64,000 bases of DNA from the NCBI RefSeq assembly GCF_041886205.1, contig NZ_CP169029.1; one strand, 5' to 3'. Shown piece after piece: positions 3,480-29,893 of the stretch (position 1 is the first letter of the stretch; each line of letters starts with the position of its first letter). The notes below the pieces were generated by a model. That model saw nothing but the letters and a program-made list of their open reading frames with translations. It searched no databases and had not been told where the DNA came from. The translations under genes were made by a program, and so were the position numbers. The DNA is from Escherichia coli (GTDB taxonomy: Bacteria > Pseudomonadota > Gammaproteobacteria > Enterobacterales > Enterobacteriaceae).

Positions 3480-5693
3480 CTGTTACTGCACCAGTACCGT
3501 TTTAACAGGTGCACCCGACCCTAGTACTGCTCGCATATCCGGCGTATCCGGGGGGTGAATCTTTCGGCATCAGGCGTCATCCGGTGCGGGATCGTCGAGG
3601 CTGCCACAGTTCCAGTTAATCAACTGGCGCAGTCACCGTTCACCTGCTCGACTCACCCTGCCAGAGTGAATGTGCGTGCCGTTGAGAAAGATTGCTGCCG
3701 TCCTTCGTCAGCACCAGCCTTGCCTCACCACAGCAGAGCTCCAGATGCCACAGGCGAGATAAACTCGCGGTCTGCCCGTGTGTCAGTCCTTCATTCGTCT
3801 TCTACCACCGGTGAAAGGCGGCGTGATTCCCCACATTGACGTCTGTAGCCCAGCCCGACCCTGAACCAGTGATCCGAAGCAGCCCTGCCTGTGAGGACTG
3901 CAACAGACGCCACCGAGGTGTGGTCGTAATGCCGCCTACCGTCGTCTGGTACGCCCACCGTCAGCGCACGAACGAGTCGCCACCGTTTCCACTCTGAACA
4001 GAACCCACGTTGATGATCTGGTTACCGCCCACCGTCTCCACACTGGTTCATCCCCCACTCGTCTGTATCTGATTAACGCCAATGTTCTGGATCTGGTTAT
4101 TGGTACCGGCGATCGCCTGGTTGTTGCCAATGGTCTCGGCATGGTTGTTTATCACATCCGTGGTGCGGTTATTCAGCACCTCAGGTGTTCATCTGTCTTC
4201 TGCGCGTGGATGTAGACCTGTTCTTTCCCTGTCGCATCGTCAAACTTCAGTTCATTAAACCCGCTGCCCGTATACGTTTTCGAGCGGATGGTCATCTGCG
4301 TCTTCGTTCCGGCAGGCTGCCGGGTGTGCGGTTTTCCTGGTGGTAGGTACGCCCCATAATGATCGGCTGGTCCGGATCGCCGTTGAGGAAGTCCACAATC
4401 ACCTCCTGACCCACACGCGGTATCGCCAGGTGGCCAAAACCGGTGCCTGCCCACGCCTGTGCCACACGGATCCAGCACGAACTGTCTTGGTCTGCCGGGT
4501 TATAACGGTCCCAGTTGAACTTCACCCGCACGCGACCATGTTCGTCGCAGAAGATTTCCTCGCCTGCCGGTCCTGTCACGACAGCGCTCTGCGGGCCGTC
4601 AACCAGCGGTTTCAGCAACGGCTGTGGTCGCCATGTTCTGTCTGCCGGGATCACCGCAAAATGGTTATCCAGCGCCGTCCCCGCTCCCTGCCGTCCTGGC
4701 ACCGCCTGTGGCTGTTCGCCGTGCAGTTCACTTGCCACCACCTGCCATTCCCGGTTCAGGTTCGCCTGCGGATGCCCCGTCAGCACAATTCGCCGTCCCG
4801 GCCATATCTCCGGCGAGCGGCTTGTTCCCCGCGCGGTTTCTGCGTTGTTGCGCCAGCCGTCCATCTGCCAGCGGGCAAAGTTCTGCCCGTGGGCACTCTC
4901 GAAACGTCCGGGGTAGTCATACACTTCATACTGCGTGCGCTGGTAGTCCTGGTGCTGGCCTTCCTGTTCAAAACGTCCGGCCCAGCCGGGTCGCTTAAAG
5001 GTGTAGTCTTTGTGTTCACCACGGAAGAAGGGCGGATTTGTGCGCTGTAGCGGAACTGGCTGATGCAGAGGGTGCTCACCTCGGTACGGGTGTTCGGATT
5101 CCAGGGATTTCAAAAGATTCGGGCAGATAACGCGACTGTGTCGCACAGCACCAGGCTCTGGTCGGTACTTTTGTAAGCATGCTCCTCATAAAAGAAGATG
5201 CCTTCCTCCGCCGCCATCCGGCACAGGAAATCGTAATCAGTCTCACCGTACTGGACACAAAACTCACGGGAAGGATGCGGCTCGCTGAACAGCGGACTCC
5301 ATTCGGTCACCCCGTTTTCCTGCAACATCGTGCCGAGGATGCTTTCGATGTCCTCGTTCTGGAAGATACGGAAGTTCTGGCGCAGACCGGCACGCCACAG
5401 CGGCGGGTGCACCTTCATGCTGTACAGCATCTGGTTTTTGTCGTTCTCCCCCAGTTCAAACCAGGTCACCACACCTTCACCCGGCGCTGTACGTCATCGC
5501 CCTGCCATACCGTCAGGTAGGCCATTTTGTCCAGCACCTGCGCAAATTCAAGGGAGAGAAACTGCTGGCTGACCAGAGAGAGATCGAGGGAAAAAAGCGA
5601 AGAGAGTGACTGGTTCAGATGAAAGGAAACCACCGCAAACGCATCCGGTGGCAGGCCGTCCACTTCCAGTGTGAAACGTAATCCGGTTGACAT
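3480..5693 (-). pseudogene. vgrG: VgrG spike protein (TssI), frameshifted; 3' end approximate
   Basis: Fragments at 5466-5693, 5110-5472, 4292-5146 and 4173-4478 (minus) read MSTGLRFTLEVDGLPPDAF..., ...GRTYHQENRTPGS..., MTIRSKTYTGSGFNELKFDDATGKEQVYIHAQK, matching VgrG gp27/gp5 modules; frames differ between fragments. Confidence 0.8.
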
Positions 5694-5850
5694 AGCAACC
5701 TCTGGGGTTAGGAAAAACAGACAGTTCGCTGTTAAAGCGGCTGTGACAGTACAGTGTTACGCTTGCGTTCAGGCACGCTACCGCCGAGTTTTCCGGCAGT
5801 CGCCATCTCCCTTGCTAGTACCCTAACTGACAACCTTTTTTTTATGGTGT

Positions 5851-5890
5851 AATACAAAAACAGCATCCGGCCTGATAGCCGGATGCTGTT
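5851..5890 (-). terminator. Rho-independent terminator immediately downstream of hcp, upstream of vgrG
   Basis: Inverted repeat cagcatccggc / gccggatgctg (5861-5888) with 6 nt loop, followed on the minus strand by a T-run (A-run 5851-5860 on plus). Confidence 0.55.
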
Positions 5891-5898
5891 GGCTTAAC

Positions 5899-6425
5899 TT
5901 ATGCTTCCAGCGGTGCGCGCCAGTCGTCGGCACCGGAGGTGCCAGATTTGACGTGTTCCCATTCAATTTTCGCGGTAGGCCAGTGAAACTTCGAGCAACT
6001 GGGTGAACTCGCGTTTCGCCGGGTCCTGGCAATGCGGCATATGCAGTTCTCATATCGCCAATCGTCGAATCAGTCAGGCGGGGAGCGAGATAGTGCTCCT
6101 GTTTGCCTTCCACAGAGGTACGCCACCAGTGAAGTTCAGCGGTTGGGCAGCATTTCGCCGGAGGCCAGTGCGTTGTACATCAGCGGAACCGCTTTGTTCA
6201 GCGCCACGGTAAAAATGAAAGGCTTGTGAGCGCACGCTGACCCGCAGGCTGACCGGACTGAGGATCGGTCCGCACAGATAACGTTATGCAGGAATTCCTG
6301 CACCAGCATCTCCGTCTTCGTGCCCCTGCACATAGATGTTGCCGACAGAATCAGCGGTAAATGCACCTGCAGTAATATTTCCCTGGGTCTGACCAGTGAT
6401 GGAAGATATAACACGGTGTTGGCAT
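5899..6425 (-). pseudogene. hcp: Hcp (TssD) tube protein, frameshifted
   Basis: Minus-strand translation from 6425 begins MPTPCY... and ends ...PLEA*; internal fragments ...EMLVQEFLHNV...HKPFIFTVALNKAVPLMYNALASGEML and VEGKQEHY...LTDSTIGDMRT match the Hcp family; length 527 nt is not a multiple of 3. Confidence 0.8.
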
Positions 6426-7134
6426 TTGTAAACTCCTTGTTAACGTGGTTAATTACTACTTACAATGACCTGCCGTTAATCCCAGACAGGCAGATGCAGC
6501 TCACTTCACGGAACCGCATCATTTTTCAGTATTTTTTACATACAAACCGAGCTAGAATTTACGGTTGTCGTAAAAACTATTTTTAAAATCATTACATAAC
6601 TCTCATTCAGCAAATAACTTAATAATATATATCTGGATAGCCATACCCAACTGTTCAAAGTCCGTATTGCCTCCATAAAATGGCCAACAGCGCGAACCAA
6701 CTGAAAATAAATATTGTATTTATCCTTTCTGAATTATCATTTTGATAATTTTTGAAGATATTCCTTAAAAATACCCACTTAATCAATCACAGTAAACACA
6801 TGTATAAATAAGCAATCATTAGATTAGCTCATGTTTAATGAAATTATTATATACTTCAATAAGTTACATAAAAAATCTATATTTAAATTATTGCCATAAT
6901 ACACCTGACGCGAATTGCACAGGTTCACACAATCTATTTAACGCTTGCAGAATACCCCTCTTTACCATCGATAAAAAGTCCTTTTCTTATTTATTTTGAA
7001 GCGTAAAATGCGGGGTGATGAAGGAGCTGGTGATTTTATTTTCACCGCCATTAGGGCGGCATTGCCGATATTTTTTTGCGGTACAAATATGCCGTGTTCA
7101 TGGCCTGTACGAGATAACATGACGGATTACTTTT
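6426..7134. promoter_or_regulatory. AT-rich divergent intergenic region between hcp-vgrG-rhs (minus) and tssB operon (plus); presumed promoters
   Basis: ~700 bp non-coding, visibly AT-rich compared with flanking genes; sits between divergently oriented T6SS genes; no specific promoter elements verified. Confidence 0.35.
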
Positions 7135-7646
7135 ATGAGCAAAAAATTTGAAGGCAGCGTCGCGCCTCGCGAGCGTATTAACATATCGTATGTCCCAAAA
7201 ACAGATGGCCAGACGGCTGAAGCGGAACTTCCGCTTAACATGCTCGTTGTCGGCGATACCGGAAATACGCAGGAAAACATCCCCACTGGATGAACGTCAG
7301 GCAGTTTCCGTTAACAAGCACAATTTCGGTGCAGTGATGGCTGAAGCAGCCATTGGCCTCAATTTTACTGTCCCCGCCACGCCTGAAGGGAAGCACAACA
7401 GACGATGAACTGAATGTGGCGCTGAATATCAAATCACTGGAAGCTGACTCTTTCACCAGATAGCGTGGCCCGGCAGGTTCCGGGAAGCGAGTAGTAATCG
7501 CTGGAACTGCGTGAAGCACTGACTGCACTGAAGGGGCTCGGCTGGGTAAACCTTCCGGCATTCCGTACCCAGCTCCAGGCATTGCTGGAAAATGAAGAGT
7601 CCCGCGAGCAGTTGCTCAAAGAAATCGGTCTGGTGAGCAATAAATA
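7135..7646 (+). pseudogene. tssB: TssB (VipA) small sheath subunit, frameshifted
   Basis: Translation from ATG 7135: MSKKFEGSVAPRERINISYVPKTDGQTAEAELPLNMLVVGDTGNTQENIP then stop; continues in another frame as LDERQAVSVNKHNFGAVMAEAAIGLNF; TssB-family N-terminal signature. Confidence 0.75.
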
Positions 7647-7958
7647 ACCACCACGATTCCATTAAACAGGGTTATCCAGGACATGACGGCACACAAAAAT
7701 ATCTCCGGGACATACCACCTCTCTGTTGCAGACATTCTGCAGGTGCTTTACCAGGTATGTTTCAGCCCGTCCGTTGAAATCAACCAGGACTGGTGTGGCT
7801 GCGCTGATTACAACACTGGATCGCCGTATCAGTGATCTATTGGATGAGATTATCCATTTTTGTGAGTTTCAGCAGAGCGCGTCGCACTGGCAGCGCGTAC
7901 TTCACTGATGGCGAAAGGCCGGTTCCAGAAACACAGCTAAAACAGAAGGATTTTCAGT

Positions 7959-9461
7959 ATGTCTTTACAGGAAGAGGAACTCTGTTCCCAGTCATGCCGG
8001 GCAGCCTGGAGCAGGCATCGTCGCTGCTTGATCAAATCATGGCACAGACCCGTATTCAGGCCCGGTTCGGAAGGTTATGACGTTGCCCGCCAGGGTGTGA
8101 CAGCCTTTATTGCCAGCATCCTGCAATCCACTGCATCTGCCGAACCGGTCAATAAACTGGCCGTGGACAGCATGATTGCAGATATTGATGAACGCATCAG
8201 CCGCCAGATGGATGTCATCATCCAGGGCGCGCCTGCCTTTCAGCAGGTCGAATCGTTCTGGCGCTCACTGAAAACCATGGTGGATCGCGTTGATTTCCGT
8301 GAAAACATCAAGGTCAACGTGCTTCATGTCACCAAAGCAGGGAACTTCTGGAAGACTTTGAGTTTGCGCCAGAAATTATTCAGTCCGGATTTGATCAAGC
8401 ACGTTTATTCGTCCGGATTCGGACAGTTTGGCGGTGAACCCATCGCTGCCGTGCTGGGCGCTTATGAGTTCAAAAATACCGCGCCTGACATGAGACTGTC
8501 GGCAAGACGCCAGTGCCGTGGGCGCAACGGCGCACGCACCGTTCCTGTCCTCCGTTTCCCCGGCGGAGTTTATGGGGCTGAACTCGTGGACCGAACTGCC
8601 TAATATCAAAGATCTTTATGCCATCTTTGAAGGTCCGGCCTACACCAAATGGCGCGCCCTGGCGTGACTCGGAAGATTCGCGCTGGATTCAGGGCTTACG
8701 GCACCCCGTTCTTCCTGCTTCGCCAGCCCTGGTCACCAGCAGATAACCCTGTTAAGAAGCTTTAACTATCACGAAGATGTCAGCCAGAACCACGAAGATT
8801 ATCTGTGGGGTAATACGGCCTGGATGCTGGCATGCAATATCGCAGACAGTTTTGCCGAATACCGCTGGTGTCCAAACATTATCGGCCCGCAAAGCGGCGG
8901 CGCGGTGAAAGATCTGCCGGTGCATCTGTTCGAAACGATGGGGCAGATTCAGGCCAAAATCCCAACCGAGGTGCTGGTCACCGATCGCCGCGAATTTGAA
9001 CTGGCTGAAGAGGGTTTTATCACCCTGACCATGCGTAAAGACTCTGATAATGCAGCCTTTTTCTCTGCAAACTCGGTACAAAAACCTGAAGCACTTTCCG
9101 GGAAAAGATGCAGAAACCAACTATAAGCTGGGTCTGCAGTCTCCCTGATCTCTTCATCATCAACCGGTTAGCGCACTACATCAAGGTGTTGCAGCGTGAA
9201 CATACTGGGGTCATGGAAAGAAAGGAGCGACTTAGAGAGGGCAGCTCAGACACCCTGGATCCGTCAGTATGTTGCCGACCAGGAAAACCCGCCGGACGGA
9301 CGTGCGCAGCCCGCAAACCTCTGCGCGCAGCCAGAGTTGAGGTTATGGATGTGGAAGGCGAACCCGGCTGGTACCAGGTTGCGCTAAGCGTGAGGCCTCA
9401 TTTTAAATTTATGGGGGCAAATTTTGAGCTTTCCCTGGTCGGCCGGTTAGACAGGGAGTAA
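7959..9461 (+). pseudogene. tssC: TssC (VipB) large sheath subunit, several frameshifts
   Basis: Fragments SLLDQIMAQTRIQ, EGYDVARQGVTAFIASIL, PVNKLAVDSMIADIDERISRQMDVIIQGAPAFQQVESFWRSLK and C-terminal ARVEVMDVEGEPGWYQVALSVRPHFKFMGANFELSLVGRLDRE match TssC; pieces are in three frames. Confidence 0.8.
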
Positions 9462-9466
9462 CACAC

Positions 9467-9893
9467 CATGAGAGTACCGGATCGGGAAAAGAACCACAGG
9501 TTCTCTTTTTTGAGCGTATGGAAGCCTCTTCGGCCAGAAACCGGGCAGGGAGGCAGTATTCATTCGCTCAGGCAATCCATTCGCCAGAACCTGACGAAAC
9601 ATTCTGAGTACCCGGTCCGGTAGTTGCCGGGGTGCGCCTGAGCTGGGCATTGATGAACCGGAAGGGGCTGAAAACTTCCGCGAATCCATGAGTCGGGCCA
9701 TCGAGCAATGTATAGAACGCTATGAACCCCGGATCTCACACGCTGAAGTGCAGGCAGTGGTTTCATCCGCCTCCAGCCCGCTGGATACGGCTGCTTCATA
9801 TTACAGCCTGGGTGACATTTCAGTCTGAAACGCATGAGGTGCTTGAATTTGATATGGCACCGAATGCAGCCAGCATTACCGGGTGGACTGACA
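9467..9893 (+). pseudogene. tssE: TssE baseplate (gp25-like) protein, frameshifted; assignment from position and size
   Basis: ~140-codon gene slot between tssC and tssF starting ATG 9467 (MRVPDREKNHRFSFLSVWKPL...); frame is interrupted; identity based mainly on synteny. Confidence 0.45.
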
Positions 9894-9894
9894 A

Positions 9895-11701
9895 ATGGAA
9901 TTTGAAGAACGCTATTTCCGGGAAGAACTCGATTACCTGCGCCAGCTGAGCAAGCTGCTCGGCAATGGATCTATCTGGCCCGCTTCCTGGCCGAAAAAGA
10001 TGCGGATCCGGATATCCAGAACGCCTGCTGGAAGGGGTGGGGCGTCTTTCTTAACCGGCAATCTCCGCCAGAAAATTGAGGATGAATTCCCAGAACTGAC
10101 GCACGGGCTCAATCAAAGATGCTATGGCCTGATCACCTGCGTCCGGTTCCTGGCAATGACCCTTGATCTATATACGCCGGATATGGATAAGTCTTCTGTA
10201 CCGGTGTTAATCCCCTCGTAGACTCAGCAGTTGAACATACCAACGCCGGGGAAATCAGAGTTGATGAAGTGCTGCCCTCTGATGCTAAAAAGGAGGAGCC
10301 GCCTCCCCTGTACCTTCAGCCCTCTGCCGGGATATCAGGCTGCTGGCCCGTTCGCCTGGAGCAGATTGACTGCAGTACGACCCGTAATGGTGTTATCATA
10401 CATCACCCTTTCGGTTCGCACCGGAAACGGACTTCCGCACGCTGGATCTGAACAAACTTCGCTTCTGCCGCTCGGCAATGACGACAACTATACCCGTGAC
10501 CAGCTTTATTTATGGTTCTGCGAATACTTGCAGGGTGCCGACCTGACTGTGGGTGAACAGCATATTCGCCTGCCTGAGTTTATGCTAAAAGCTGTCGGTT
10601 TTGAGCCGCAGGACGCCATGCTGGCCCTGGCCTGAAAAACGTCCACAGCGGCTACCGGATCCTTCAGGAGTATTTCCGTTACCCCGATGCGTTTCTCTTT
10701 TTTGATCTTTGTGGTTGTCCGGCTTTGCCTGACGGATTGCAGGCGGAATTCTTTACCCTGCAACTGCGTTTTTCGCGCCCTTTGCCCGTGGACATCCGGC
10801 TGCGCCGCGATTCCCTGCGCCTGTATCGCGCACCTGCCATTAATTTATTTATCCACCATGCAGAAGCCATCACGCTGGACAAACCGGCGGGCAAGACTAT
10901 CCGCTGGTTCCCAGCCGCCATTACCCACAACATTACGATGTATTTTCCGTTAACAGTGTGGTGAGCCAGGTCCAGGATATGTTCAGGAAAAAAGATCTGG
11001 GGCGTCCTGTTTCGACGCAGGCCGCGCGCCAGTGGCCAGCCTTTGAAAGTTTCAGCCATCAGATGGAATACAGCCGGAAGCGGGAAGTGGTGTACTGGCA
11101 ATCACCGGACCAAAACATCCCTGTTCCATCGCGGCTTTGATCATACCCTTGCCTTTATACATGCTGATGGCAGTTATCCGTCAGACGAATCTTCTCGCTC
11201 GAGTAAATGAAGTGGTTTCGGTATCGCTGACCTGTACCAACCGTGAGCTTCCGTCACAAATACGTTCCGGGCGATATCACCGGCACAACCGGTAAAAATG
11301 CGGCTGTTGCTTCATTTCGCAACATTACCCGCCCGACGCAACCACTCTGGCCGGTCATTGACTGGCAGCCTGCACTGGTCCCTGCTCTCCGCCATGAACC
11401 TGAATTATCTGTCATTACTGGATACGGACGCGCTGAAGCAGCTCATCGCCAGTCTTTGATCGCCACGCAATCCATCATCCGCAGACGGCACGGCTGTCAC
11501 AACAAAAGCTGGATGCCATTGAGCGTCTGGAGACCCGCCCCGTTGATCGCCTGTTTACGGGTATTCCCGTCCGGGGACTTGGCCTCCACGCTGTATCTGC
11601 ACCCGGAGCCGTTTGTCTGTGAAGGGAAATGTATCTGCTCGGTACGGTGCTTTCGCATTTTCTGTCGCTGTACGCCAGCGTTAACTCATTCCACATGCTG
11701 A
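9895..11701 (+). pseudogene. tssF: TssF baseplate protein, several frameshifts
   Basis: N-terminus MEFEERYFREELDYLRQL is the conserved TssF start; ~600-codon span fits TssF; ORF pieces at 9895-10221, 10231-10635, 10725-10964, 11243-11701 in different frames. Confidence 0.7.
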
Positions 11702-11729
11702 CCGTTGTGAACACAGAAAGCCAGGAGAC

Positions 11730-12817
11730 ATGGAAATGGACGGAAAGAATCGGGCAGCATCCTCTTATCTGAGTCCGGGAAATCCCCCGGCAGATAAAGA
11801 GCAGAATGATCCGCTGGCACAGGTTTTCCATAATGCCTGCTCTTACAATTTTTTTGCGATGGCGGGCTCGTTGCACCGCCTGGCAAAGGGTGAAAGGGGA
11901 CGCCAGAATTATCCCTGCGTGACGATCCGGCACAGGAAACCCTGCGTTTCAGCGCCGATGCCAGCCTTGCCTTCCCGTGCAGTGATATCAGTGCACTGAA
12001 ACGGGATACGTCAGGGGCATTCAGGATGACCACCACCTTTATGGGGTTACAGGGGAGCCAGTCGCCTCTCCCCGGTTATTACCTCGATCACCTGGCCTGG
12101 AAAGCGGTACATGAACAAAGTCCGGTAGGTGATTTTCTGGATATGTTCAGCCACCGCCTGACCCAGTTTGTCTGGCATATCTGGCGTAAGTACCGCTATC
12201 ACATCAGTTTTCGTAACGGCGGTGTGGATGCGTTCTCGCAGCGCATGTACTCCCTTGTCGGGCTGGGCCACCGCCAGCTTCGCGATAAGCTGGCGATTAA
12301 TCACAGCAAAATGCTGGCGTATTCCGGGATCCTGGCAAATCCGGGATGATCCCCGGAAATAATCTGTGGCCTGGTGTCCCACTGCTTTGATTTGTCAGAA
12401 GTGACGCTGCAAAACTGGCAACGTCGCAAGGTGGATATTGAACCGGATCAGCAAAATAGTCTGGGGAGCTATTCTCTTAAAAATGGCGAAAAACTGGCGG
12501 GAAGATCGGTACTGGGCAACTTTGTTCTGGGTACACGAGTGCCCGATCTCAGCGGAAAATTCCAGCTCAGTATTACCAGCCTGACCCGAAAACAGTTCCT
12601 CTCTTTCTGCCGTCTGGCGAAAACTTCCTGCCACTGACGATGTTCGTGTCCTTCATCCTGCGCGATCAGCTTGCCTGGGACTTACATCTGGGGCTGGCGC
12701 CGGAGCAGGTGGGCGCAATGCGCCTGGGCGATAACAAAAGTGCGCTGCTGGGCTGGACCAGCTTCCTCGGCACACCGGAAGAACGACCCTCAGTCACCAT
12801 CAGGGTACGGTCGTAAA
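11730..12817 (+). pseudogene. tssG: TssG baseplate protein, frameshifted
   Basis: Follows tssF; N-terminal fragment contains LAQVFHNACSYNFF (TssG-like YNFFQ motif region); ~360-codon slot; pieces at 11730-11999, 12026-12349, 12374-12637 in different frames. Confidence 0.55.
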
Positions 12818-12819
12818 TT

Positions 12820-14121
12820 ATGATAATCACGGAGCAGAATATGCCGGAAGAGAAACTACAGACGCTTTCATTGCAGGTCATTAACGGCAGTGAGCTGGAA
12901 AGCGGACGGGCGGCGCGCTGTCTGTTCACACAGCAGGGAAATGTCGGCCATGGCCCCGAATGCCACTGGTCGGTACAGGATCGTCAGCAGAGCATTCCGG
13001 CCCAGGCTTTTACCGTTATCCTGCACGATGGCACATTTTGTCTGCGCCCGCAGACGGCACAACTGTGGCTGAATCAGGCAAAAGTCACAGCAACATCAGA
13101 CCTAATACAGTTGCGCCAGGGCGATGAGATCCAGATCGGACGGCTGATGGTGAGGGTTCATCTGAACCGGGGAGATATTCCCCATTACGATGAGGAAATG
13201 GCCACTCCCGAAACCATCGTTACCAATCGCGATATGCTCACGGATACCCTGCTATCAACGGAGGGTACGCCACACTATCCGGGAATGACTCACCGGCACC
13301 AACTTGCAGACACCGTGGTAAACGGTTTTTCTGCCGATCCACTCCAGGCACTTCAGTCCGAAAGCCTGATTACCACGGGCGATCCGCTTTCAGGCATTGC
13401 GGCTGTCCGGCCATCGGCACCGCTGTCCGATCCGGCAAGTAATGGGGGGATCAATACTCCGTTTATGGATCTGCCGCCCATTTATGCCAGCCCCGGCGAT
13501 CGTAATGACGACGTCTCTGCGGCAGAAATGGCGCAACGCCACCTTGCGGTCACCCCCTTACTGCGCGGTCTTGGCGGCTCGCTTACCATGAGCAATTCCG
13601 ACGATGCGGATGATTTTCTGGAGGAGGCCGGACGAACGTTACAGGCCGCAATAAAAGGTCTGCTCGATTTGCAGCAGCAGCGTAACAGCCTCTCAGACAA
13701 ACATTTGCGCCCGCTGGAAGATAACCCGCTGCGCCTGAACATGGATTACGCCACCGCGCTCGACGTAATGTTTGCCGAAGGTAAAAGCCCGGTACATCTG
13801 GCGGCTCCCGCCGCCGTCAGTGAAAGCCTGCGCAATGTCCGCCACCACGAAGAAGCTAACCGGGCAGCGATTGTGGAGTCGCTTCGTGTCCTGCTGGATG
13901 CTTTCTCACCACAAAATCTGCTGCGCCGCTTTGTGCAGTACCGCCGCAGCCATGAACTGCGCCAGCCGCTGGATGATGCCGGAGCATGGCAAATGTACAG
14001 CCATTATTACGAAGAACTGGCCTCCGATCGCCAGCAGGGGTTTGAGATGCTGTTTAACGAGGTCTACGCCCAGGTCTATGACCGGGTGCTTCGTGAAAAA
14101 CAGCGGGAGCCGGAAGCATGA
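12820..14121 (+). CDS. tagH: T6SS-associated FHA-domain-like protein (TagH-like), 433 aa, intact
   Basis: Single long ORF; N-terminal region LSLQVINGSELESGRAARCLFTQQGNVGHGPECHWSVQD...TVILHDGTFCL resembles the FHA fold pattern of TagH/Fha proteins; embedded in T6SS operon; stop overlaps tssJ start (ATGA). Confidence 0.5.
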   Translation: MIITEQNMPEEKLQTLSLQVINGSELESGRAARCLFTQQGNVGHGPECHWSVQDRQQSIPAQAFTVILHDGTFCLRPQTAQLWLNQAKVTATSDLIQLRQGDEIQIGRLMVRVHLNRGDIPHYDEEMATPETIVTNRDMLTDTLLSTEGTPHYPGMTHRHQLADTVVNGFSADPLQALQSESLITTGDPLSGIAAVRPSAPLSDPASNGGINTPFMDLPPIYASPGDRNDDVSAAEMAQRHLAVTPLLRGLGGSLTMSNSDDADDFLEEAGRTLQAAIKGLLDLQQQRNSLSDKHLRPLEDNPLRLNMDYATALDVMFAEGKSPVHLAAPAAVSESLRNVRHHEEANRAAIVESLRVLLDAFSPQNLLRRFVQYRRSHELRQPLDDAGAWQMYSHYYEELASDRQQGFEMLFNEVYAQVYDRVLREKQREPEA

Positions 14122-14642
14122 ACAGGAAGGCGTTTCTGGCCTGCGTGCTGATGTGCGTCATATTAACCGGCTGCGAAACGGCGAAAAAAATCAGTGAGGT
14201 GATCAAAAACCCGGATATCCAGGTCGGGAGCCTGAAGGAGCAACCTTCGGAAATAACCGTCACCCTGCTGACCGAACCGGACACGCATACCAATGCGGAA
14301 GGTGAATCAGCCGCCGTGGATGTGCAACTGGTGTACCTGACTGACGACTCAAAATTGCTGGCAGCCGACTATGACCAGATAGCCAGTACGCCGCTACCGG
14401 ATGTGCTGGGTAAAAACTATATCGACCACCAGGATTTCAACCTGTTGCCGGACACCATCAAAACCCTGCCGCCGGTAAAGCTGGATGAGAAAACGCAGTT
14501 TATTGGTGTCGTGGCCGATTTCTCCGATGACCAGGCCACTGAATGGGAACAAATCGAGACGGTGGAAGGAACCGGCCACCATTACCGCCTGCTGGTGCAT
14601 GTACGTCAAAGCAGCATCGAAATGAAAAAAGAGGATGAATAA
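14118..14642 (+). CDS. tssJ: TssJ outer-membrane lipoprotein, 174 aa, intact
   Basis: Signal peptide with lipobox (MNRKAFLACVLMCVILTGC); size and position before tssK typical of TssJ. Confidence 0.7.
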   Translation: MNRKAFLACVLMCVILTGCETAKKISEVIKNPDIQVGSLKEQPSEITVTLLTEPDTHTNAEGESAAVDVQLVYLTDDSKLLAADYDQIASTPLPDVLGKNYIDHQDFNLLPDTIKTLPPVKLDEKTQFIGVVADFSDDQATEWEQIETVEGTGHHYRLLVHVRQSSIEMKKEDE

Positions 14643-14644
14643 TT

Positions 14645-15977
14645 ATGGCAACCACCCGCAACAAGGTGATGTGGCAGGAAGGGATGCTGATGCGCCCACA
14701 CCATTTCCAGCAACAGCAGCGTTACAACGACTACCTGGATAACCAGCGTTTCCGGGCCATGAATGATTTATCCTGGGGATTTACCGAACTCACCCTCAAC
14801 AATGAACTGCTGGCGCAGGGTAAGATCATGATTGACAGCGCGTCAGGCACACTGCCCGACGGCACCGTCTTTTCTATCCCCGACCAGGACGCACTGCCCG
14901 ATCCGCTGCACCCGCAAAATTTTCCGGACGAAAGAAGCCGCAATATCTACCTCGCTCTGCCGGTCGCCAGTGATGTGAGAAATGAAATCAGCGACGGACG
15001 GCGAATCGGGCGTTACCGGCTGAATTATGCCGATGTCCGGGATTTGCATTCAGAAGAAGGTGACGCGCGAACATTGACGCTGGGTCAACTGACGCCGCGC
15101 ATTATGAGCGGTGCAGAAGATATGAGCGCCTATATTACGCTCCCGCTTTGCCGTATCAGCGATCGCCATGCCGATGGCTCCCTGACGTTGGATGACGATT
15201 TTATCCCCTCCTGCCAGAATATTCAGGTCAGTAAGAAACTGCGTGTTTATCTCAAAGAGGTACAGGGGGCCATTGGCGGACGGGCAAGCGATCTGGCAAA
15301 CCGTATTGGCTCTCCGGCGCAGAGCGGCATCGCGGATGTGGCGGAATTTATGATGTTGCAGTTACTTAACCGTAACCAGACCCGGTTTACCCATCGCGCC
15401 CGCCGATCCCAGCTCCACCCGGAAGATTTCTACCTTGATCTTGCTGGGTTGCTGGGTGAACTGATGACCTTTACCGAGCCGTCGCGCCTGCCCTGCCCGC
15501 TTGATGTGTATGATCATCATGATCTGACCAAAACATTTAAAACACTGTTACCGGAAGTCAAACGGGCGCTACATACCGTACTGTCGCCAAGAGCGGTCAA
15601 TCTGCCGCTGCATCTGCGTGACGGTATCTGGCAGGCCGATATCCATGACACAGAACTGCTGCAATCTGCCACCTTTGTGCTGGCCGTGGCGGCAAACGTG
15701 CCGGTCGATCAGATCCAGCGTCAGTTTATCCAGCAGTCGAAAATTTCCTCGCCGGAAAAAATCCGCAATATGGTCAGTGTGCAGATCCCCGGTATTCCAT
15801 TGCGTGCCACTTATGGCGGCTCCCCGCCAGCTTCCTTATCATTCCGGGTTCAGCTATTTCGAACTCGACAAGAGCGGACAGGCCTGGACAGAAATGGCTG
15901 CCGCCGGGGCCGTTGCACTGCATGTATCCGGCAGTTTCCCGGATCTGAACATGCAACTGTGGGCGATAAGAGGGTAA
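14645..15977 (+). pseudogene. tssK: TssK baseplate protein, one apparent frameshift near the 3' end (~15.8 kb)
   Basis: N-terminus MATTRNKVMWQEGMLMRPHHFQQQQRYNDYLDNQRF... is TssK-like; C-terminal TssK sequence (FELDKSGQAWTEMAAAGAVALHVSGSFPDLNMQLWAIRG) is in the frame of ORF 15618-15977, not the frame of the long ORF. Confidence 0.8.
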
Positions 15978-15981
15978 GACG

Positions 15982-16742
15982 ATGGATGAGGGGTCACTGT
16001 CTCTGCCACCATTTACCGGATACGACGAAAAAAGCCAGCGCAACTACCATCTCGCGCTTCGTGGCAACAGCCTGAATCCGATGATCGACGCGGCCACGCC
16101 GCTACTCGGTATGGTAATGCGCCTTTCAACCATGAACAGCCAGACGATGCCGGAGCATCTTTTTGCTCAGGTGGTGACGGATGTTCAGGCCGTGGAGCAA
16201 CTGCTTCAGGAGCAGGGCTACGAACCGGGCGTGATTATCTCGTTTCGCTACATCCCCTGCACGTTTATTGATGAAGCTGGCGCTCGGTAACGGCTGGTCA
16301 AACAAGAACGAGTGGATCAAGCAGTCATTGCTGGTCCATTTCCACAACGAAGCCTGGGGTGGAGAGAAAGTTTTCATCCTGCTGGAGCGCCTGATCCGTG
16401 AACCCAAACGTTACCAGGATCTGCTGGAATTTCTCTGGATCTGTTTTTCTCTGGGATTTCGCGGGCGCTACAAAGTGGCAGCACAGGATCAGGGGGAATT
16501 TGAGCAGATCTACCGCCGTCTGTACCACGTTCTGCATAAACTGCGCGGCGATGCCCCTTTCCCGCTGTTACACCAGGACAAAAACCCAGGGCGGGCGTTA
16601 TCAGCTCATCAGTCGCCTGACTGTTAAACATATTTTTTGTGGTGGCGTTGTCGTGCTGGCGTTGTTTTACCTGTTCTATCTGTTGCGGCTGGACAGCCAG
16701 ACGCAGGACATCCTGCACCAGCTAAACAAATTACTTCGATAA
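15982..16742 (+). pseudogene. tssL: TssL (DotU-like) membrane protein, frameshifted
   Basis: N-terminal DotU-like sequence (NPMIDAATPLLGMVMRL...), C-terminal hydrophobic segment (VVVLALFYLFYLL) in a different frame; three ORF pieces. Confidence 0.7.
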
Positions 16743-16750
16743 GGACGTTT

Positions 16751-19521
16751 ATGATCCAGATTGATCTTCCCACGCTGGTAAAACGGCTGAACCTGTTCTC
16801 CCGCCAGGCGCTGGAGATGGCCGCCTCTGAATGTATGAGTCAGCAGGCAGCGGAAATTACCGTCAGCCATGTGCTCATTCAGATGCTCACCATGCCACGC
16901 AGTGACCTGCGGGTTATTACCCCGCCAGGGCGATATTGGCATGGAAGAAGTTGCGCCAGGCGCTGACGGTAGAGAACTACACGACCGCCCGTTCTGCGGA
17001 CAGCTACCCGGCGTTTTCCCCGATGCTGGTTGAGTGGCTGAAAGAGGGCTGGCTGCTGGCGTCGGCTGAGATGCAGCACAGCGAACTGCGCGGCGGCGTG
17101 TTGCTGCTGGCCCTGCTGCATTCGCCGCTGCGTTATATACCGCCTGCTGCCGCCCGGCTGACCGGCATGAACCGTGACCGTCTGCAAAGGACTTTGTGCA
17201 ATGGACACAGGAGTCGGCGGAATCAGTCGTGCCGGATGCAGACGGTAAAGGCGCAGGCACACATGACGGACGCCTCTGACACCCTGCTTGCCCGCTATGC
17301 CAAAAACATGACCGCAGACGCCCGTAACGGCAGGCTTGACCCGGTACTGTGCCGCGACCACGAAATCGACCTGATGATCGACATTCTCTGCCGCCGCCGT
17401 AAAAACAACCCGGTGGTGGTGGGCGAAGCGGGCGTGGGCAAAAGCGCACTGATTGAAGGGCTGGCGCTGCGCATCGTGGCAGGCCAGGTGCCGGACAAGC
17501 TGAAAAACACCGATATCATGACCCTGACCTGGGCGCATTGCAGGCCGGGGCGTCGGTGAAGGGTGAATTCGAAAAACGTTTCAAAGGGCTGATGGCGGAG
17601 GTCATTTCCTCCCCGGTGCCGGTCATTCTGTTTATCGACGAAGCACATACCCTGATTGGCGCGGGCAACCAGCAGGGCGGGCTGGATATCTCCAACCTGC
17701 TCAAACCGGCGCTGGCGCGCGGCGAGCTGAAAACCATCGCCGCCACCACCTGGAGCGGTACAAAAAATACTTCGAAAAAGATGCCGCCCTGTCGCGCCGC
17801 TTCCAGTTGGTGAAGGTCAGCGAACCCAACGCTGCCGAAGCCACCATTATTCTGCGCGGTCTGTCGGCGGTCTATGAACAGTCTCACGGCGTGCTGATTG
17901 ATGATGACGCCTTGCAGGCCGCTGCGACATTAAGCGAGCGTTATCTCTCCGGGCGTCAGTTACCGGACAAAGCGATTGATGTGCTGGATACCGCCTGCGC
18001 CCGTGTGGCCATCAACCTGTCGTCGCCGCCGAAGCAAATCTCGGCGCTGACCACTCTGAGCCACCAGCAGGAGGCGGGAAATTCGCCAGCTTGAGCGCGA
18101 GCTTCGCATCGGACTGCGTACCGACACATCACGGATGACCGAGGTGCTGGTGCAGTATGATGAAACGCTGACGGCGCTGGATGAACTGGAAGCGGCCTGG
18201 CACCAGCAGCAGACGCTGGTCCGGGAGATTATTGCGCTGCGCCAGCAGTTACTGGGCGTGGCAGAGGACGATGCGGCGCCGTTGCCGGACCGCAGATACC
18301 GTGGAGGATACGCAGCCAGAGTCAGAGTCAGAACAGGATAATACCGAGTGCCGTACCGGCTGGATGAGGCCGACAGAGAACAGCCGGAAGAGACCGCTGA
18401 AACAGTTTCCCCGGTACAACGTCTGGCGCCATCTCACTGCCGAACTGGACGCCCTGCATAACGACCGGTTGCTGGTTTCCCCGCACGTCGATAAAAAACA
18501 GATTGCGGCGGTGATTGCCGAATGGACCGGCGTGCCGCTTAACCGCCTGTCGCAGAATGAAATGTCGGTCATCACCGACCTGCCAAAATGGCTCGGCGAC
18601 ACCATCAAGGGCCAGGACCTGGCGATTGCCAGCCTGCACAAACACCTGCTGACCGCACGCGCCGACCTGCGCCGTCCGGGACGCCCGCTGGGCGCGTTCC
18701 TGCTGGCTGGCCCCAGCGGCGTGGGTAAAACTGAAACCGTCCTGCAACTGGCAGAGCTGCTCTACGGCGGTCGCCAGTACCTGACCACCATCAATATGTC
18801 CGAGTTCCAGGAGAAACATACCGTCTCGCGACTGATTGGTTCGCCTCCGGGCTACGTTGGCTACGGTGAAGGCGGCGTACTGACCGAAGCGATTCGCCAG
18901 AAACCCTACTCGGTAGTACTGCTCGATGAAGTGGAAAAAGCGCACCCGGATGTGCTCAACCTGTTCTACCAGGCGTTCGATAAGGGCGAAATGGCAGACG
19001 GTGAAGGCCGCCTGATTGACTGCAAAAATATCGTCTTCTTCCTGACGTCCAACCTCGGCTACCAGGTAATAGTCGAGCATGCCGATGACCCGGAAACCAT
19101 GCAGGAAGTACTGTATCCAGTTGTGCTGGCCGACTTCTTCAAACCTGCCCTGCTGGCGCGTATGGAAGTGGTGCCGTACCTGCCGCTGTCGAAAGAGACG
19201 CTCGCCACCATCATTGCCGGGAAACTGGCCCGCCTGGATAACGTGCTGCGCAGCCGCTTTGGCGCGGAGGTGATTATAGAACCGGAAGTGACGGACGAAA
19301 TCATGAGCCGCGTCACCCGCGCGGAAAACGGCGCGAGGATGCTGGAATCGGTCATCGACGGCAAGATGCCGCCGCTGCTCTCCCTGCTGCTGTTGCAGAA
19401 AATGGCGGCGAATACGGCGGTTGCCCGGATTCGGTTGTCGGCAGTGGACGGCGCATTTACGGCAGACGTGGAAGATGCTCAGAACGACGAGTCCGTCACA
19501 AAGGATGAAACGGTTTTATGA
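16751..19521 (+). pseudogene. clpV: ClpV (TssH) AAA+ ATPase, several frameshifts
   Basis: Two AAA+ Walker A motifs (GEAGVGKSA in fragment 16936-17559; GPSGVGKTE in fragment 18181-19521); ~920-codon span split over at least five ORF pieces in different frames. Confidence 0.85.
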
Positions 19522-20261
19522 GCAGGTTGCGCGTTTTCCGGCAGACAGGATGGTTTATCGCGGGCCTGATGACGGGCTTACCCGCCACTGCCGCGCCCGC
19601 AGAAGCATCGTCAATGGCCGGTGTGGCGGTTGCCGTCGCCACCACGACCCCGCCGGATGCGACAGCCACGTTACAGGCCATGCAGTCCTGTCGGCGGGAG
19701 TCCGCGGCGCTGGAGCGGCTTGACTGCTATGACCGCCTGCTGGCACCGCTGTCCCCGTCAGGGTTTGACGGGGCGCTGGTCAAAGCCGGTTTTGTGGGCG
19801 AAGCCTGGACCCGCGCCACAGAACAGGAAAAACACCGCCAGGGCAACACCACAGAGCTGCTGGTGACGCAGGTGCCGGGGGAGCGCCCGACGGTGGTGAT
19901 AACCACCCCGGCTATCGGTCATGTTCCGCCACGCCCGGTGCTGATGTTCAGTTGCGTGGACAATATCACCCGGATGCAGGTGGCGCTGATGCACCCTCTG
20001 GATGTCCATGATATCGCCGTCACTCTGAATGCCGACAACCGGGCATTGCGCAGCCACTGGTTTGTGCGCGAGAACGGCACCCTGCTGGAGTCCAGCCGGG
20101 GGTTATCCGGGATTGATGAAATTAAGCAACTGTTCGGCGCAAAAACGCTGACGGTGGATACCGGCGCAGACAATGCCGCCGGAAAGCTGACCTTTAACAT
20201 TGACGGGCTGGCAAGGGCGATTGCTCCCCTGCGCGATGCCTGCCACTGGGCGGGAGAGTAA
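19518..20261 (+). CDS. Predicted secreted/periplasmic protein of unknown function, 247 aa, intact, T6SS-cluster accessory
   Basis: Intact ORF with N-terminal signal-peptide-like hydrophobic segment (FIAGLMTGLPATAAPAEA); start overlaps clpV stop (ATGA) suggesting translational coupling. Confidence 0.55.
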   Translation: MSRLRVFRQTGWFIAGLMTGLPATAAPAEASSMAGVAVAVATTTPPDATATLQAMQSCRRESAALERLDCYDRLLAPLSPSGFDGALVKAGFVGEAWTRATEQEKHRQGNTTELLVTQVPGERPTVVITTPAIGHVPPRPVLMFSCVDNITRMQVALMHPLDVHDIAVTLNADNRALRSHWFVRENGTLLESSRGLSGIDEIKQLFGAKTLTVDTGADNAAGKLTFNIDGLARAIAPLRDACHWAGE

Positions 20262-20265
20262 AAAT

Positions 20266-21679
20266 ATGGCAATGGACTTACGCGATCCGAATGTCTGGAT
20301 ATCGCACCTGCTGGAAAACCTGCCGGAAGAGAAACTGGCATCGGCGCTGAAAGATGACAACCCGAACTGGGAGTATATCGACGGCGAAATCGTCAAGCTG
20401 GGATCGCTGGCCCACAGTCAACTGGATATCCCGGAACTCCAGCGCCGGGGGCTGGTCATTCTGGCTTCGGAGAGTAAGGATTTTCGTCTGCTGGCGCATC
20501 TGCTGAGAACCCTGCAACACGCCGGTGATCCTCACTCCCGCATTGCGCCTGCTGGCGCTGTATGTGGAGCATTACTGGGCGGTGGCTGCGCCGCAGAATA
20601 TGGCGCATAAAAAACGCTTTGCCAGCCAGGTCATTAAACGCTTTGAAACAGGTATTGAAGTTTTTTCACAGAACGCCGCCACAGCGCAGCGCGATGCGCT
20701 GTCAGGGGAACTGGCAAAACTGGCGCAATGCTGGCAGTCACATAACGCCCCGGAACTGGCACAGGCTACTGATGATCTTTTTGCCCCGTACCAGCGTGCG
20801 TTTAATCGTGCGGCACCGGTTCCTGTCCCCACTCCGGCGGCCTCCGGTAGTTCACCACAGACCACCGCCACGTCTGAAAGCGGCGTGACGCAACCCAGTG
20901 CTCCGGCTCCCCAAATCGTCATCGACAGTCACGACGACAAAGCCTGGCGCGACACGCTGTTAAAAGTGGCGGCCATTTTATGTGAACGCCAGCCGGATTC
21001 ACCGCAGGGCTACCGTCTGCGCCGCCATGCGCTTTGGCAGAACATCACCAGTACGCCCCAGGCGGAAAGCGATGGCCGTACTCCACTGGCTGCGGTCTCC
21101 GCCGATATGGTGGCAGATTACCATGCTCAGCTCGGTAGTGCCGATATGGCGCTGTGGCAGCAGGTGGAGAAAAGCGTACTGCTGGCTCCTTACTGGCTGG
21201 ATGGTCACTGCCTTTCTGCACAGACGGCGCTGCGTCTGGGTTACAAACAGGTGGCAGACGCCATCCGCGATGAGGTCATCCGCTTCCTTGAGCGTCTGCC
21301 CCAGCTTACCGGGCTGCTGTTTAATGACCACACACCGTTTATCAGTGAGCAGACGAAACAATGGCTGGCAGCTTCGCCCGACGCCAAAGTTGCACCGGTT
21401 GCGCAAATCGGTGAGGAATCGAAGGCAGCCAGAGCCTGTTTTGCTGAGCAGGGTCTGGAGGCGGCGCTGCGATATCTGGACATGCTACCCGAAGGCGATC
21501 CCCGCGATCAGTTTCACCGCCAGTACCTTGCCGCACAGTTGACGGAAGAGGCGGGGCTGGTACAGCTTGCGCAGCAGCAGTACCGGATGTTGTTCAGGAT
21601 GGGATTGCAGATGATGGTGGCAGACTGGGAGCCGTCCCTGCTTGAGCAGCTAGAACAAAAATTCACGGCAGAACAATAA
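20266..21679 (+). pseudogene. tssA: TssA (ImpA N-terminal domain) protein, one apparent frameshift near 20.53 kb
   Basis: N-terminal fragment MAMDLRDPNVWISHLLENLPEEKLASAL...SESKDFRLLAHLL (ImpA_N-like) in one frame, remainder (384 aa ORF 20525-21679) in another. Confidence 0.7.
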
Positions 21680-21697
21680 AAGAGAACAGGAGTTTTT

Positions 21698-24600: not shown

Positions 24601-25228
24601 CTATCCGTTTAATCCGCGTTCTGCACAGGATGCCTCACTGGATGCCTTCGAACGCTTCTTTAAACCGGATGGCATACTGGATACCTTCTACCAGCAGAAC
24701 CTGAAGCTGTTTATCGACAATGACCTGAGTCTGGAGGATGGCGATAACAGCGTCATTATTCGCGAAGATATTATTGCGCAACTGAAAACCGCGCAGAAAA
24801 TCCGTGACATCTTCTTCAGTAAACAGAACGGTCTGGGAACATCCTTTGCCGTGGAAACGGTATCGCTCTCCGGCAACAAACGCCGCAGTGTACTGAACCT
24901 TGACGGCCAGTTAGTCGATTACAGCCAGGGGCGCAACTATACCGCCCATCTGGTCTGGCCTAACAATATGCGCGAAGGCAACGAAAGCAAACTGACGCTC
25001 ATCGGCACCAGCGGCAACGCGCCGCGCAGTATCAGCTTCAGCGGGCCGTGGGCGCAGTTCCGCCTTTTCGGGGCCGGACAACTGACCGGAGTTCAGGATG
25101 GCAACGTTACCGTGCGCTTTAGCGTGGACGCTGGCGCGATGACCTACCGTGTGCATACCGACACTGAGGATAACCCATTCAGCGGTGGGTTATTCAGCCA
25201 GTTTGGTCTGTCAGACACACTGTACTGA
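21698..25228 (+). pseudogene. tssM: TssM (IcmF-like) membrane-complex protein, several frameshifts
   Basis: N-terminal transmembrane segments, Walker A motif GPAGSGKTTLL (fragment 21967-22434), ~1170-codon span ending with 369 aa fragment 24119-25228; at least five frame changes. Confidence 0.8.
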
Positions 25229-29816: not shown

Positions 29817-29893
29817 TGGCGGAACGGACGGGACTCGAACCCGCGACCCCCTGCGTGACAGGCAGGTATTCTAACCGACTGAACTACCGCTCC
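29817..29893 (-). tRNA. aspV: tRNA-Asp (GUC)
   Basis: 77 nt; reverse complement reads GGAGCGGTAGTTCAGTCGGTTAGAATACCTGCCTGTCACGCAGGGGGTCGCGGGTTCGAGTCCCGTCCGTTCCGCCA. Confidence 0.97.

What the first reader, a model, noticed from the sequence alone, without database searches (positions are those of the whole stretch)
12820..14121. FHA-like protein without a cognate kinase or phosphatase in the cluster
The 433 aa ORF between tssG and tssJ has an N-terminal region resembling the FHA phosphothreonine-binding fold of TagH/Fha. In threonine-phosphorylation-regulated T6SSs this partner comes with PpkA/PppA, but no Ser/Thr kinase or phosphatase gene is recognisable anywhere in this island. The FHA assignment is from pattern recall and the domain looks divergent.
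Basis: inference. Interest (0 to 1): 0.4.

Follow-up and report, generated by a model that had tools for sequence, protein, structure and literature searches.

The report
Kinase-less TagH of E. coli T6SS-1
The ORF is the ordinary TagH (Fha) accessory protein of the common E. coli type VI secretion island next to tRNA-Asp. It does lack a partner kinase and phosphatase, but this is a documented, normal feature of Vibrio cholerae-type secretion clusters.

Summary

No Ser/Thr kinase or PP2C phosphatase is present in the 64-kb window or in an intact reference copy of the island. This rests on RefSeq annotation, a Pfam scan of all unassigned proteins, and a six-frame tblastn with a working positive control.

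The feature is already known. The window is the E. coli aspV T6SS-1 (vas-like) island, and tagH is 100% identical across more than 1300 of the 5426 complete genomes searched. Published work states that V. cholerae, E. coli O157 and Y. pestis clusters carry Fha without PpkA/PppA.

One addition: the canonical phosphothreonine-contact residues are replaced (Arg to His44, Ser to Pro60, His to Ala63, Asn to Ala80). Canonical TagH relatives sit beside kinase and phosphatase genes. The likely role is a phosphorylation-independent assembly scaffold.

In this window nearly all neighbouring T6SS genes carry odd small indels, probably a sequence-quality artefact.

The parts
   Evidence: TIGR03354 344 bits. 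100% nucleotide identity to tagH of more than 1300 complete E. coli genomes. GGAG lies 7 nt upstream of 12841.
12859..13170 (+). N-terminal FHA-fold domain (aa 14-117 in 433-aa numbering). It lacks the canonical pThr-contact residues: His44, Pro60, Ala63 and Ala80 replace Arg, Ser, His and Asn. Gly43, Thr79 and Asn85 are retained.
13192..13524 (+). Predicted disordered linker rich in Thr, Pro, Ala, Asp and Ser (aa 125-235)
   Evidence: Most of the segment is below pLDDT 50, and ten-residue block means run 35-59. Composition and lowest conservation of the three parts.
13564..14085 (+). T6SS_FHA_C all-helical C-terminal domain (Pfam aa 249-422; the AF2 helical domain spans about aa 240-430). This is the best conserved part of the protein.
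   Evidence: PF20232 142 bits. AF2 pLDDT is mostly 88-97 across this domain, with one ten-residue block at about 70. Conservation is higher than in the FHA domain.
11736..12816 (+). tssG upstream neighbour, broken by 4 small indels in this window
14118..14642 (+). tssJ lipoprotein gene, overlapping the tagH stop by 4 nt and intact
14645..25228 (+). Downstream T6SS genes: tssK, tssL (icmH/dotU), tssH (clpV), vasI, tssA, tssM. All except vasI carry indels in this window. None encodes a kinase or phosphatase.
3520..11772 (.). Upstream T6SS genes: vgrG (-), hcp (-), tssB, tssC, tssE, tssF (+). All carry many small indels in this window.
29817..29893 (-). tRNA-Asp (aspV), the island boundary. Core genes dnaQ, rnhA and onward follow it.

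Best explanation
The ORF is TagH (also called Fha or VasC), the accessory protein of the E. coli aspV-associated T6SS-1. This is a V. cholerae vas-type (T6SS i1) cluster with gene order tssB-C-E-F-G-tagH-tssJ-K-L-H-vasI-tssA-tssM-vasL.

Shown here:
- The protein has three parts: an N-terminal FHA-fold domain, a disordered linker of about 110 aa, and a conserved helical T6SS_FHA_C domain.
- The island has no PpkA, PppA or TagF.
- Four canonical FHA signature residues (the phosphate-contacting Arg and Ser, the loop-stabilising His, the peptide-contacting Asn) are replaced. These include the Arg and Ser whose equivalents were shown by mutagenesis to matter in P. aeruginosa Fha1 (R32/S48) and A. 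tumefaciens Fha (R30/S46).

Inferred mechanism: TagH works constitutively, without a threonine-phosphorylation switch. It would act as a cytoplasmic scaffold that nucleates or stabilises the inner-membrane complex (TssL/TssM) and baseplate (TssE/F/G/K) at the start of T6SS assembly. Its FHA-fold face would serve as a phospho-independent (or non-canonical) protein-binding surface, with the linker and C-terminal domain providing multivalent and membrane contacts. Control of the system would then lie at transcription or elsewhere.

This inference rests on experiments with the V. cholerae homolog. That protein is kinase-less and not detectably phosphorylated, yet it is required for Hcp secretion and TssG focus formation.
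For: Identity:
- TIGR03354 344 bits; PF20232 and PF00498.
- RefSeq annotates tagH in 2247 of the 5426 complete E. coli genomes searched.
- Synteny with an intact island.

Fold and architecture:
- AF2 model.

No kinase or phosphatase.

Loss of pThr-contact residues:
- Two independent alignments agree: Rad53 FHA1 by phmmer and the 93-sequence TagH family alignment containing canonical members.
- Both give H44=Arg, P60=Ser, A63=His, A80=Asn.
- Across the family the Arg column reads S 59, A 11, H 8, C 5, R 3.

Link between residues and context:
- All three TagH relatives with GR...SxxH...TNG are canonical. The two on long enough contigs (L003, L005) have PP2C and Pkinase genes right after tssM.
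- Five relatives without the Arg (L006, L007/8, L009, L010, L011), like E. coli, have the vas-type order and no kinase or phosphatase in the available flanks.

Literature:
- V. cholerae, E. coli O157 and Y. pestis clusters have Fha without PpkA/PppA. V. cholerae TagH is required for Hcp secretion, no phosphorylation was detected, and Fha1 R32/S48 correspond to S38/K54 (PMC8993066; PMC10482370).
- Fha acts as an assembly-initiating scaffold with an FHA, disordered-region and C-terminal architecture, and this also holds for V. cholerae Fha (bioRxiv 10.1101/2023.12.21.572528).
- Boyer subgroup I does not depend on PpkA/PppA/Fha regulation (PMC2660368).
Against: - No experiment on the E. coli protein was found, so the mechanism is transferred from V. 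cholerae and A. citrulli homologs with about 30-35% identity.
- In V. cholerae, mutating the residues at the Arg and Ser positions (S38A, K54A) still impaired function. That surface therefore matters, and a non-canonical phospho-ligand is not excluded.
- His44 is conserved in the enterobacterial clade and could contact a phosphate when protonated.
- A kinase encoded elsewhere in the genome cannot be excluded from a 64-kb window. From my own knowledge, E. coli has Hanks-type YegI and the PP2C-like PphC.
- The context survey is small and contig flanks are at most 10 kb.
- In this window nearly all essential T6SS genes appear frameshifted. If that is real, TagH here has no machine to serve.
Confidence: 0.72

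Rival explanations
1. TagH is still a phosphothreonine reader and is served in trans. A kinase and phosphatase encoded outside the island phosphorylate TagH, TssL or another component, and the divergent FHA domain binds that phospho-site through a non-canonical pocket, for example using His44 and Thr79.
For: The review PMC10482370 raises this possibility for V. cholerae. The S38A and K54A mutations at the equivalent surface impair V. cholerae TagH. Thr79 (the Rad53 T106 position) and the fold are retained, and His44 is conserved in the enterobacterial clade. The linker is rich in Thr and Ser.
Against: Four of the canonical signature residues are replaced, including the phosphate-contacting Arg and Ser. 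No TagH phosphorylation was detected in V. cholerae, and no ppkA or pppA exists in that genome. The FHA domain evolves faster than the C-terminal domain, and residue loss tracks kinase absence.
Confidence: 0.18
2. In this particular genome tagH is an intact but functionless remnant. The surrounding T6SS-1 island is decaying, with frameshifts in almost every core gene, and tagH simply has not been hit yet.
For: Relative to intact islands, tssB, C, E, F, G, K, L, H, A, M, hcp and vgrG in the window carry between 1 and 45 indel events each. T6SS degeneration in E. coli lineages is documented (PMC10711316 and PMC12981562).
Against: The indel pattern does not look like natural decay. Single-base insertions outnumber single-base deletions 198 to 58, and most are outside homopolymers. 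Indels are about as frequent as substitutions in hcp, tssB and tssE. The pattern is patchy: none in 12.6-15.8 kb, and only four events in tssG just upstream of that, although the local rate elsewhere is about 1 per 70 bp. No complete E. coli genome shares them. This points to sequence or assembly error, in which case the island is probably intact.
Confidence: 0.1

Closest known systems
Vibrio cholerae TagH / VasC / Fha (VCA0112) of the vas T6SS (T6SS i1)
   Same: The gene position is the same (tssG-tagH-tssJ-tssK-tssL) and so is the three-part architecture. There is no PpkA, PppA or TagF. The canonical Arg and Ser of the FHA pocket are replaced (S38/K54 in V. cholerae, H44/P60 here). The V. 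cholerae protein is required for Hcp secretion and TssG foci, and no phosphorylation was detected.
   Different: Identity to Vibrio-type representatives is only about 30-35%. The E. coli, Salmonella and Citrobacter clade has additionally lost the conserved His (Ala63), which most family members keep (70 of 93), and uses His rather than Ser at the Arg position. The E. coli island has no vasH sigma-54 activator gene. No experiments on the E. coli protein were found.
Pseudomonas aeruginosa Fha1 (PA0081), Agrobacterium tumefaciens Fha and Serratia Fha of the threonine phosphorylation pathway
   Same: Same protein family (TIGR03354, FHA plus T6SS_FHA_C) and the same neighbourhood with tssJ, tssK and tssL. 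Presumably the same scaffold role in assembling the membrane complex and baseplate.
   Different: Those proteins keep the GR...SxxH...TNG residues, and R32/S48 or R30/S46 are needed for function. They are encoded with PpkA, PppA and often TagF, and they bind or carry pThr. The canonical relatives found here sit beside PP2C and Pkinase genes. The E. coli protein meets none of these points.
Phospho-independent FHA-like domains of other secretion systems (T3SS YscD and PrgH cytoplasmic domains, T7SS EssC/YukB N-terminal domains)

Membership tests
TagH / Fha family of T6SS accessory proteins (NCBIfam TIGR03354; Pfam FHA + T6SS_FHA_C) | Full-length match to the TagH equivalog model above its curated cutoff | tested here: met
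   344 bits against a cutoff of 120.25, covering aa 16-425 and model positions 1-420 of 420
TagH / Fha family of T6SS accessory proteins (NCBIfam TIGR03354; Pfam FHA + T6SS_FHA_C) | C-terminal T6SS_FHA_C domain (PF20232) | tested here: met
   142 bits, E 2e-41, aa 249-422. Confident helical domain in the AF2 model.
TagH / Fha family of T6SS accessory proteins (NCBIfam TIGR03354; Pfam FHA + T6SS_FHA_C) | N-terminal FHA fold | tested here: met
   [not shown]
TagH / Fha family of T6SS accessory proteins (NCBIfam TIGR03354; Pfam FHA + T6SS_FHA_C) | Encoded inside a T6SS core gene cluster | tested here: met
   Lies between tssG and tssJ in the aspV T6SS-1 island
Threonine phosphorylation pathway (PpkA-PppA-Fha) type of T6SS regulation | Hanks-type Ser/Thr kinase (PpkA) encoded in the cluster | tested here: not met
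   None in the RefSeq annotation of the intact island, in the Pfam scan of unassigned proteins, or in six-frame tblastn (best E 0.44; positive control 1e-40)
Threonine phosphorylation pathway (PpkA-PppA-Fha) type of T6SS regulation | PP2C phosphatase (PppA) encoded in the cluster | tested here: not met
   Same searches: best tblastn E 0.2, positive control 1e-62
Threonine phosphorylation pathway (PpkA-PppA-Fha) type of T6SS regulation | Canonical pThr-binding residues in the FHA domain (the Arg and Ser equivalent to Fha1 R32/S48, plus His and Asn) | tested here: not met
   Arg to His44, Ser to Pro60, His to Ala63, Asn to Ala80. Only Gly43, Thr79 and Asn85 are kept.
Threonine phosphorylation pathway (PpkA-PppA-Fha) type of T6SS regulation | Phosphorylation of Fha or TssL, and pThr-dependent binding | not testable with these tools
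   This needs Phos-tag or mass spectrometry and binding assays. For the V. cholerae homolog no phosphorylation was detected (PMC8993066).
Threonine phosphorylation pathway (PpkA-PppA-Fha) type of T6SS regulation | TagF (COG3913) repressor that binds Fha | tested here: not met
   No TagF is annotated in the intact island, and none of the unassigned proteins hit a TagF model in the Pfam scan. No dedicated TagF search of the six-frame translation was run.
E. coli T6SS-1 / V. cholerae vas-type (T6SS i1) cluster | Gene order tssB-tssC-tssE-tssF-tssG-tagH-tssJ-tssK-tssL with vasI, vasL and a divergent hcp-vgrG | tested here: met
   Annotation of L001 and its mapping to the window. The same order is seen in L006-L011. 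The EHEC aspV island is described as vas-like (PMC5363993). No TssC phylogeny was run to assign the i1 subtype formally.

The most novel reading that the evidence does not exclude
The enterobacterial TagH clade (E. coli, E. albertii, Salmonella, Citrobacter, Hafnia) may be the most degenerate form of a 'pseudo-FHA'. It would have given up phosphothreonine reading entirely (Arg, Ser, His and Asn all replaced). More generally, loss of the pThr pocket across the TagH family would track loss of PpkA/PppA, splitting T6SS Fha proteins into switchable phospho-readers and constitutive scaffolds. The published reading of V. cholerae S38/K54 as 'conserved phosphopeptide-binding residues' would then need revising.
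Probability: 0.55. Interest if true: 0.35.

Novelty: already known. Interest (0 to 1): 0.15.

Why it matters
It matters little as a discovery. A kinase-less Fha in vas-type T6SS clusters, E. coli included, is in the literature, and this gene is annotated as tagH in thousands of genomes.

The useful residue is a sharper hypothesis. The FHA pocket of this clade lacks the residues that define phosphothreonine reading, and canonical versus degenerate pockets appear to co-vary with presence versus absence of PpkA/PppA. That argues against looking for a hidden kinase. It favours treating TagH as a constitutive assembly scaffold, which can be tested in any E. coli strain with an active T6SS-1.

Tried and rejected
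- Hidden kinase or phosphatase in the island: rejected. RefSeq annotation of an intact copy, a Pfam scan of all 9 unassigned or hypothetical products, annotation of a near-identical reference (L002) covering the window's core flank, and six-frame tblastn with T6SS-linked PP2C and STK queries all found nothing. The six-frame search matters because frameshifts in the window could hide ORFs.
- The FHA call as a false positive from a marginal Pfam score: rejected by the TagH equivalog model and the structure-based matches.
That stretch is covered only by tblastn.
- A literature search for a statement that kinase-less Fha proteins lack the canonical residues found no such statement. Wang et al. 2022 instead call the substituted residues 'conserved'.
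- I did not identify the source assembly of the window.

Full report
**Observation.** The window holds an uninterrupted ATG ORF at 12820..14121 (+), 433 aa.
- It matches the NCBIfam TagH equivalog TIGR03354 over its whole length (344 bits, cutoff 120).
- It matches Pfam T6SS_FHA_C (aa 249-422, 142 bits).
- It matches Pfam FHA only marginally (aa 42-107, 22.3 bits against a gathering score of 20.7). There is also a sub-threshold hit to the FHA-like cytoplasmic domain of T3SS YscD.

An AlphaFold2 model built on a 93-sequence family alignment has three parts:
- a confident beta-sandwich at aa 14-117 (pLDDT above 90);
- a low-confidence, presumably disordered segment at about aa 125-235, rich in Thr, Pro, Ala, Asp and Ser;
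- a confident all-helical domain at aa 240-430.

The start is probably the in-frame ATG at 12841. It has a GGAG 7 nt upstream and is the RefSeq start, giving 426 aa. The ATG at 12820 follows the tssG stop by 3 nt and has no such motif.

**Where the window comes from.**
- The tagH DNA is 100% identical to tagH in many complete E. coli genomes. Of the 5426 genomes searched, 2247 have a match and 1339 of those are at 99% or above.
- In an intact reference (NZ_CP025916, locus L001) the order is rhs, vgrG and hcp on one strand. On the other strand come tssB, a 74-aa ORF, tssC, tssE, tssF, tssG, tagH, tssJ, tssK, tssL (icmH), tssH, vasI, tssA, tssM, a VasL-domain gene, hcp, a hypothetical gene and ykfM. 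These are followed by yafT, tRNA-Asp (aspV), dnaQ and rnhA.
- This is the aspV-associated, V. cholerae vas-like T6SS island, described for EHEC EDL933 in PMC5363993.
- The rest of the window (29.8-64 kb) is core chromosome: dnaQ through the rrnH operon, metNIQ, proS, dnaE and lpxB. It is 99.9% identical to another E. coli genome.

**No kinase or phosphatase.**
- None is annotated in the intact island.
- The nine hypothetical or poorly named products of that island gave no Pkinase, PP2C or SpoIIE hit in Pfam. Two are VasI and VasL/ImpA_N, and one weakly resembles the VipB N-terminus.
- No such gene is annotated in the near-identical reference (L002) that covers the window's core part.
- Many ORFs in the window are broken, so I also searched all six frames. 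The queries were two PP2C and two Ser/Thr-kinase proteins taken from T6SS clusters of canonical TagH relatives (L003, L005). The best window hit had E 0.2 (24 bits, noise), while the queries found each other at 1e-62 and 1e-40.
- TagF is not annotated either.

**The phosphopeptide pocket.** Two independent alignments give the same equivalences. One is a phmmer alignment to Rad53 FHA1. The other is the TagH family alignment, which contains three textbook members with GR...SxxH...TNG...NG.

| Rad53 FHA1 residue | E. coli TagH residue | Status |
|---|---|---|
| G69 | Gly43 | kept (invariant in the family) |
| R70 | His44 | replaced |
| S85 | Pro60 | replaced |
| H88 | Ala63 | replaced |
| T106 | Thr79 | kept |
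| N107 | Ala80 | replaced |
| N112 | Asn85 | kept (invariant in the family) |

The Arg and Ser positions are the ones shown by mutagenesis to matter in P. aeruginosa Fha1 (R32, S48) and A. tumefaciens Fha (R30, S46).

Across 93 family members the Arg column reads S 59, A 11, H 8, C 5, R 3. The His variant occurs only in the E. coli, E. albertii, Salmonella, Citrobacter and Hafnia clade. The His column reads H 70, A 14.

The FHA domain is also less conserved than the C-terminal domain. Against a Salmonella homolog the figures are 52% and 92%, and across distant homologs 27% and 43%.

**Context of relatives.**
- Two of the three canonical relatives lie on contigs long enough to judge. Both have the order tagH-tssJ-tssK-tssL-tssM followed directly by PP2C and Pkinase genes. 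The third contig is too short.
- Five relatives lacking the Arg have the vas-type order tssB-C-E-F-G-tagH-tssJ-K-L, two of them with a sigma-54 activator and vasI. None has a kinase or phosphatase in the available flanks of up to 10 kb.
- With the published cases, canonical pockets go with PpkA/PppA (P. aeruginosa, A. tumefaciens) and degenerate pockets go without (V. cholerae with S38/K54, and E. coli).
- The sample is small and not phylogenetically corrected, so this is a supported lead and not a demonstrated rule.

**What is already known.**
- Wang et al. 2022 (PMC8993066) state that some T6SS clusters, 'such as those of V. cholerae, E. coli O157, and Y. pestis', contain the FHA gene without ppkA or pppA. 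They also report that V. cholerae TagH is needed for Hcp secretion, that no phosphorylation of it could be detected, and that Fha1 R32/S48 correspond to TagH S38/K54.
- The 2023 review PMC10482370 says the same and speculates about unidentified kinases.
- Boyer et al. 2009 noted that subgroup I, which holds the V. cholerae locus, does not depend on the PpkA/PppA/Fha mechanism.
- Pei et al. (bioRxiv 10.1101/2023.12.21.572528) report that Fha has an FHA domain, a disordered region and a C-terminal amphipathic helix. They report that it forms condensates, recruits membrane-complex and baseplate proteins, and initiates assembly. They also found that V. cholerae Fha forms such condensates and is required for TssG foci.

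The finding is therefore a correct reading of a known and common arrangement.

**Most likely mechanism.**
- Shown: the identity, the three-part architecture, the absence of PpkA, PppA and TagF, and the degenerate pocket.
- Inferred: TagH acts as a constitutive, phosphorylation-independent scaffold for early T6SS assembly. The FHA fold would serve as a protein-binding module, as in the pThr-independent FHA-like domains of YscD, PrgH and EssC, which also appear in the structural search at lower Z.
- Main rival: a trans-encoded kinase and a non-canonical phospho-pocket. This is not excluded, because the equivalent surface matters in V. cholerae and His44 is clade-conserved.
- Tests that would decide between them: binding assays, phosphoproteomics and kinase deletions.

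**Caveat specific to this window.** Relative to intact islands, the stretch 2069-29760 carries about 300 small indels. Of these, 198 are single-base insertions, mostly outside homopolymers.
- They break vgrG, hcp, tssB, C, E, F, G, K, L, H, A and M. Only tagH, tssJ and vasI are untouched.
- No complete E. coli genome shares them (best 96.9%).
- The core flank has only 4 gaps in 34 kb.
- Indels are about as common as substitutions, there is a strong insertion bias, and a clean stretch at 12.6-15.8 kb holds no indels, with only four events in tssG just upstream. This pattern does not look like natural pseudogene decay and suggests a sequence-quality problem.
- I cannot explain why the indels are confined to the island. 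If they are real, TagH here is an intact remnant of a dead system.

**Verdict.** The feature is already known and ordinary, so interest is low.

Noticed in passing
window 2069-29760 (whole T6SS island up to aspV): There are about 300 small indels relative to intact E. coli islands. Of these, 198 are single-base insertions, mostly outside homopolymers. They frameshift almost every T6SS gene: vgrG 45 events, tssF 37, tssC 21, tssH 15, tssA 14, tssE 10, tssB 9, hcp 7, tssM 6, tssG 4, tssL 2, tssK 1. Only tagH, tssJ and vasI are clean. The adjacent 34 kb of core genome has only 4 gaps, and no complete E. coli genome shares the indels (best 96.9%). The pattern looks like a sequence or assembly artefact and not natural decay, but why it is confined to the island is unexplained.
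   Followed up: partly
window 7683-7908 (+); L001 14927-15151: A 74-aa ORF annotated 'hypothetical' between tssB and tssC weakly matches the N-terminus of the sheath protein family VipB/TssC (Pfam E 0.0026). It could be a detached or mis-annotated N-terminal piece of tssC in this island type.
   Followed up: no
L002 1234-7687 (NZ_AP045833, aspV-proximal region) versus window 1-29800: The genome closest to the window in the core flank (99.9%) carries a different, fragmentary T6SS at aspV: tagJ, tssE and tssF pieces, plus tssG, tssA and a DUF6531/Rhs pseudogene. The aspV site therefore hosts alternative T6SS islands in near-identical backgrounds.
   Followed up: no
[not shown]
   Followed up: partly
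window 1-3441 (-): The window starts inside an Rhs core gene downstream of vgrG. The first roughly 2 kb do not align to the reference Rhs (a variable C-terminal or toxin region), have 62-65% G+C, and are broken into short ORFs on both strands.
   Followed up: no
PMC8993066 (V. cholerae TagH paper) versus alignment A1, columns for E. coli TagH positions 44 and 60: The paper calls S38 and K54 'conserved phosphopeptide binding residues', yet they occupy the positions of the canonical Arg and Ser (Fha1 R32/S48) and are substitutions of them. Most vas-type TagH proteins share this (Arg column: S 59, R 3 of 93).
   Followed up: yes
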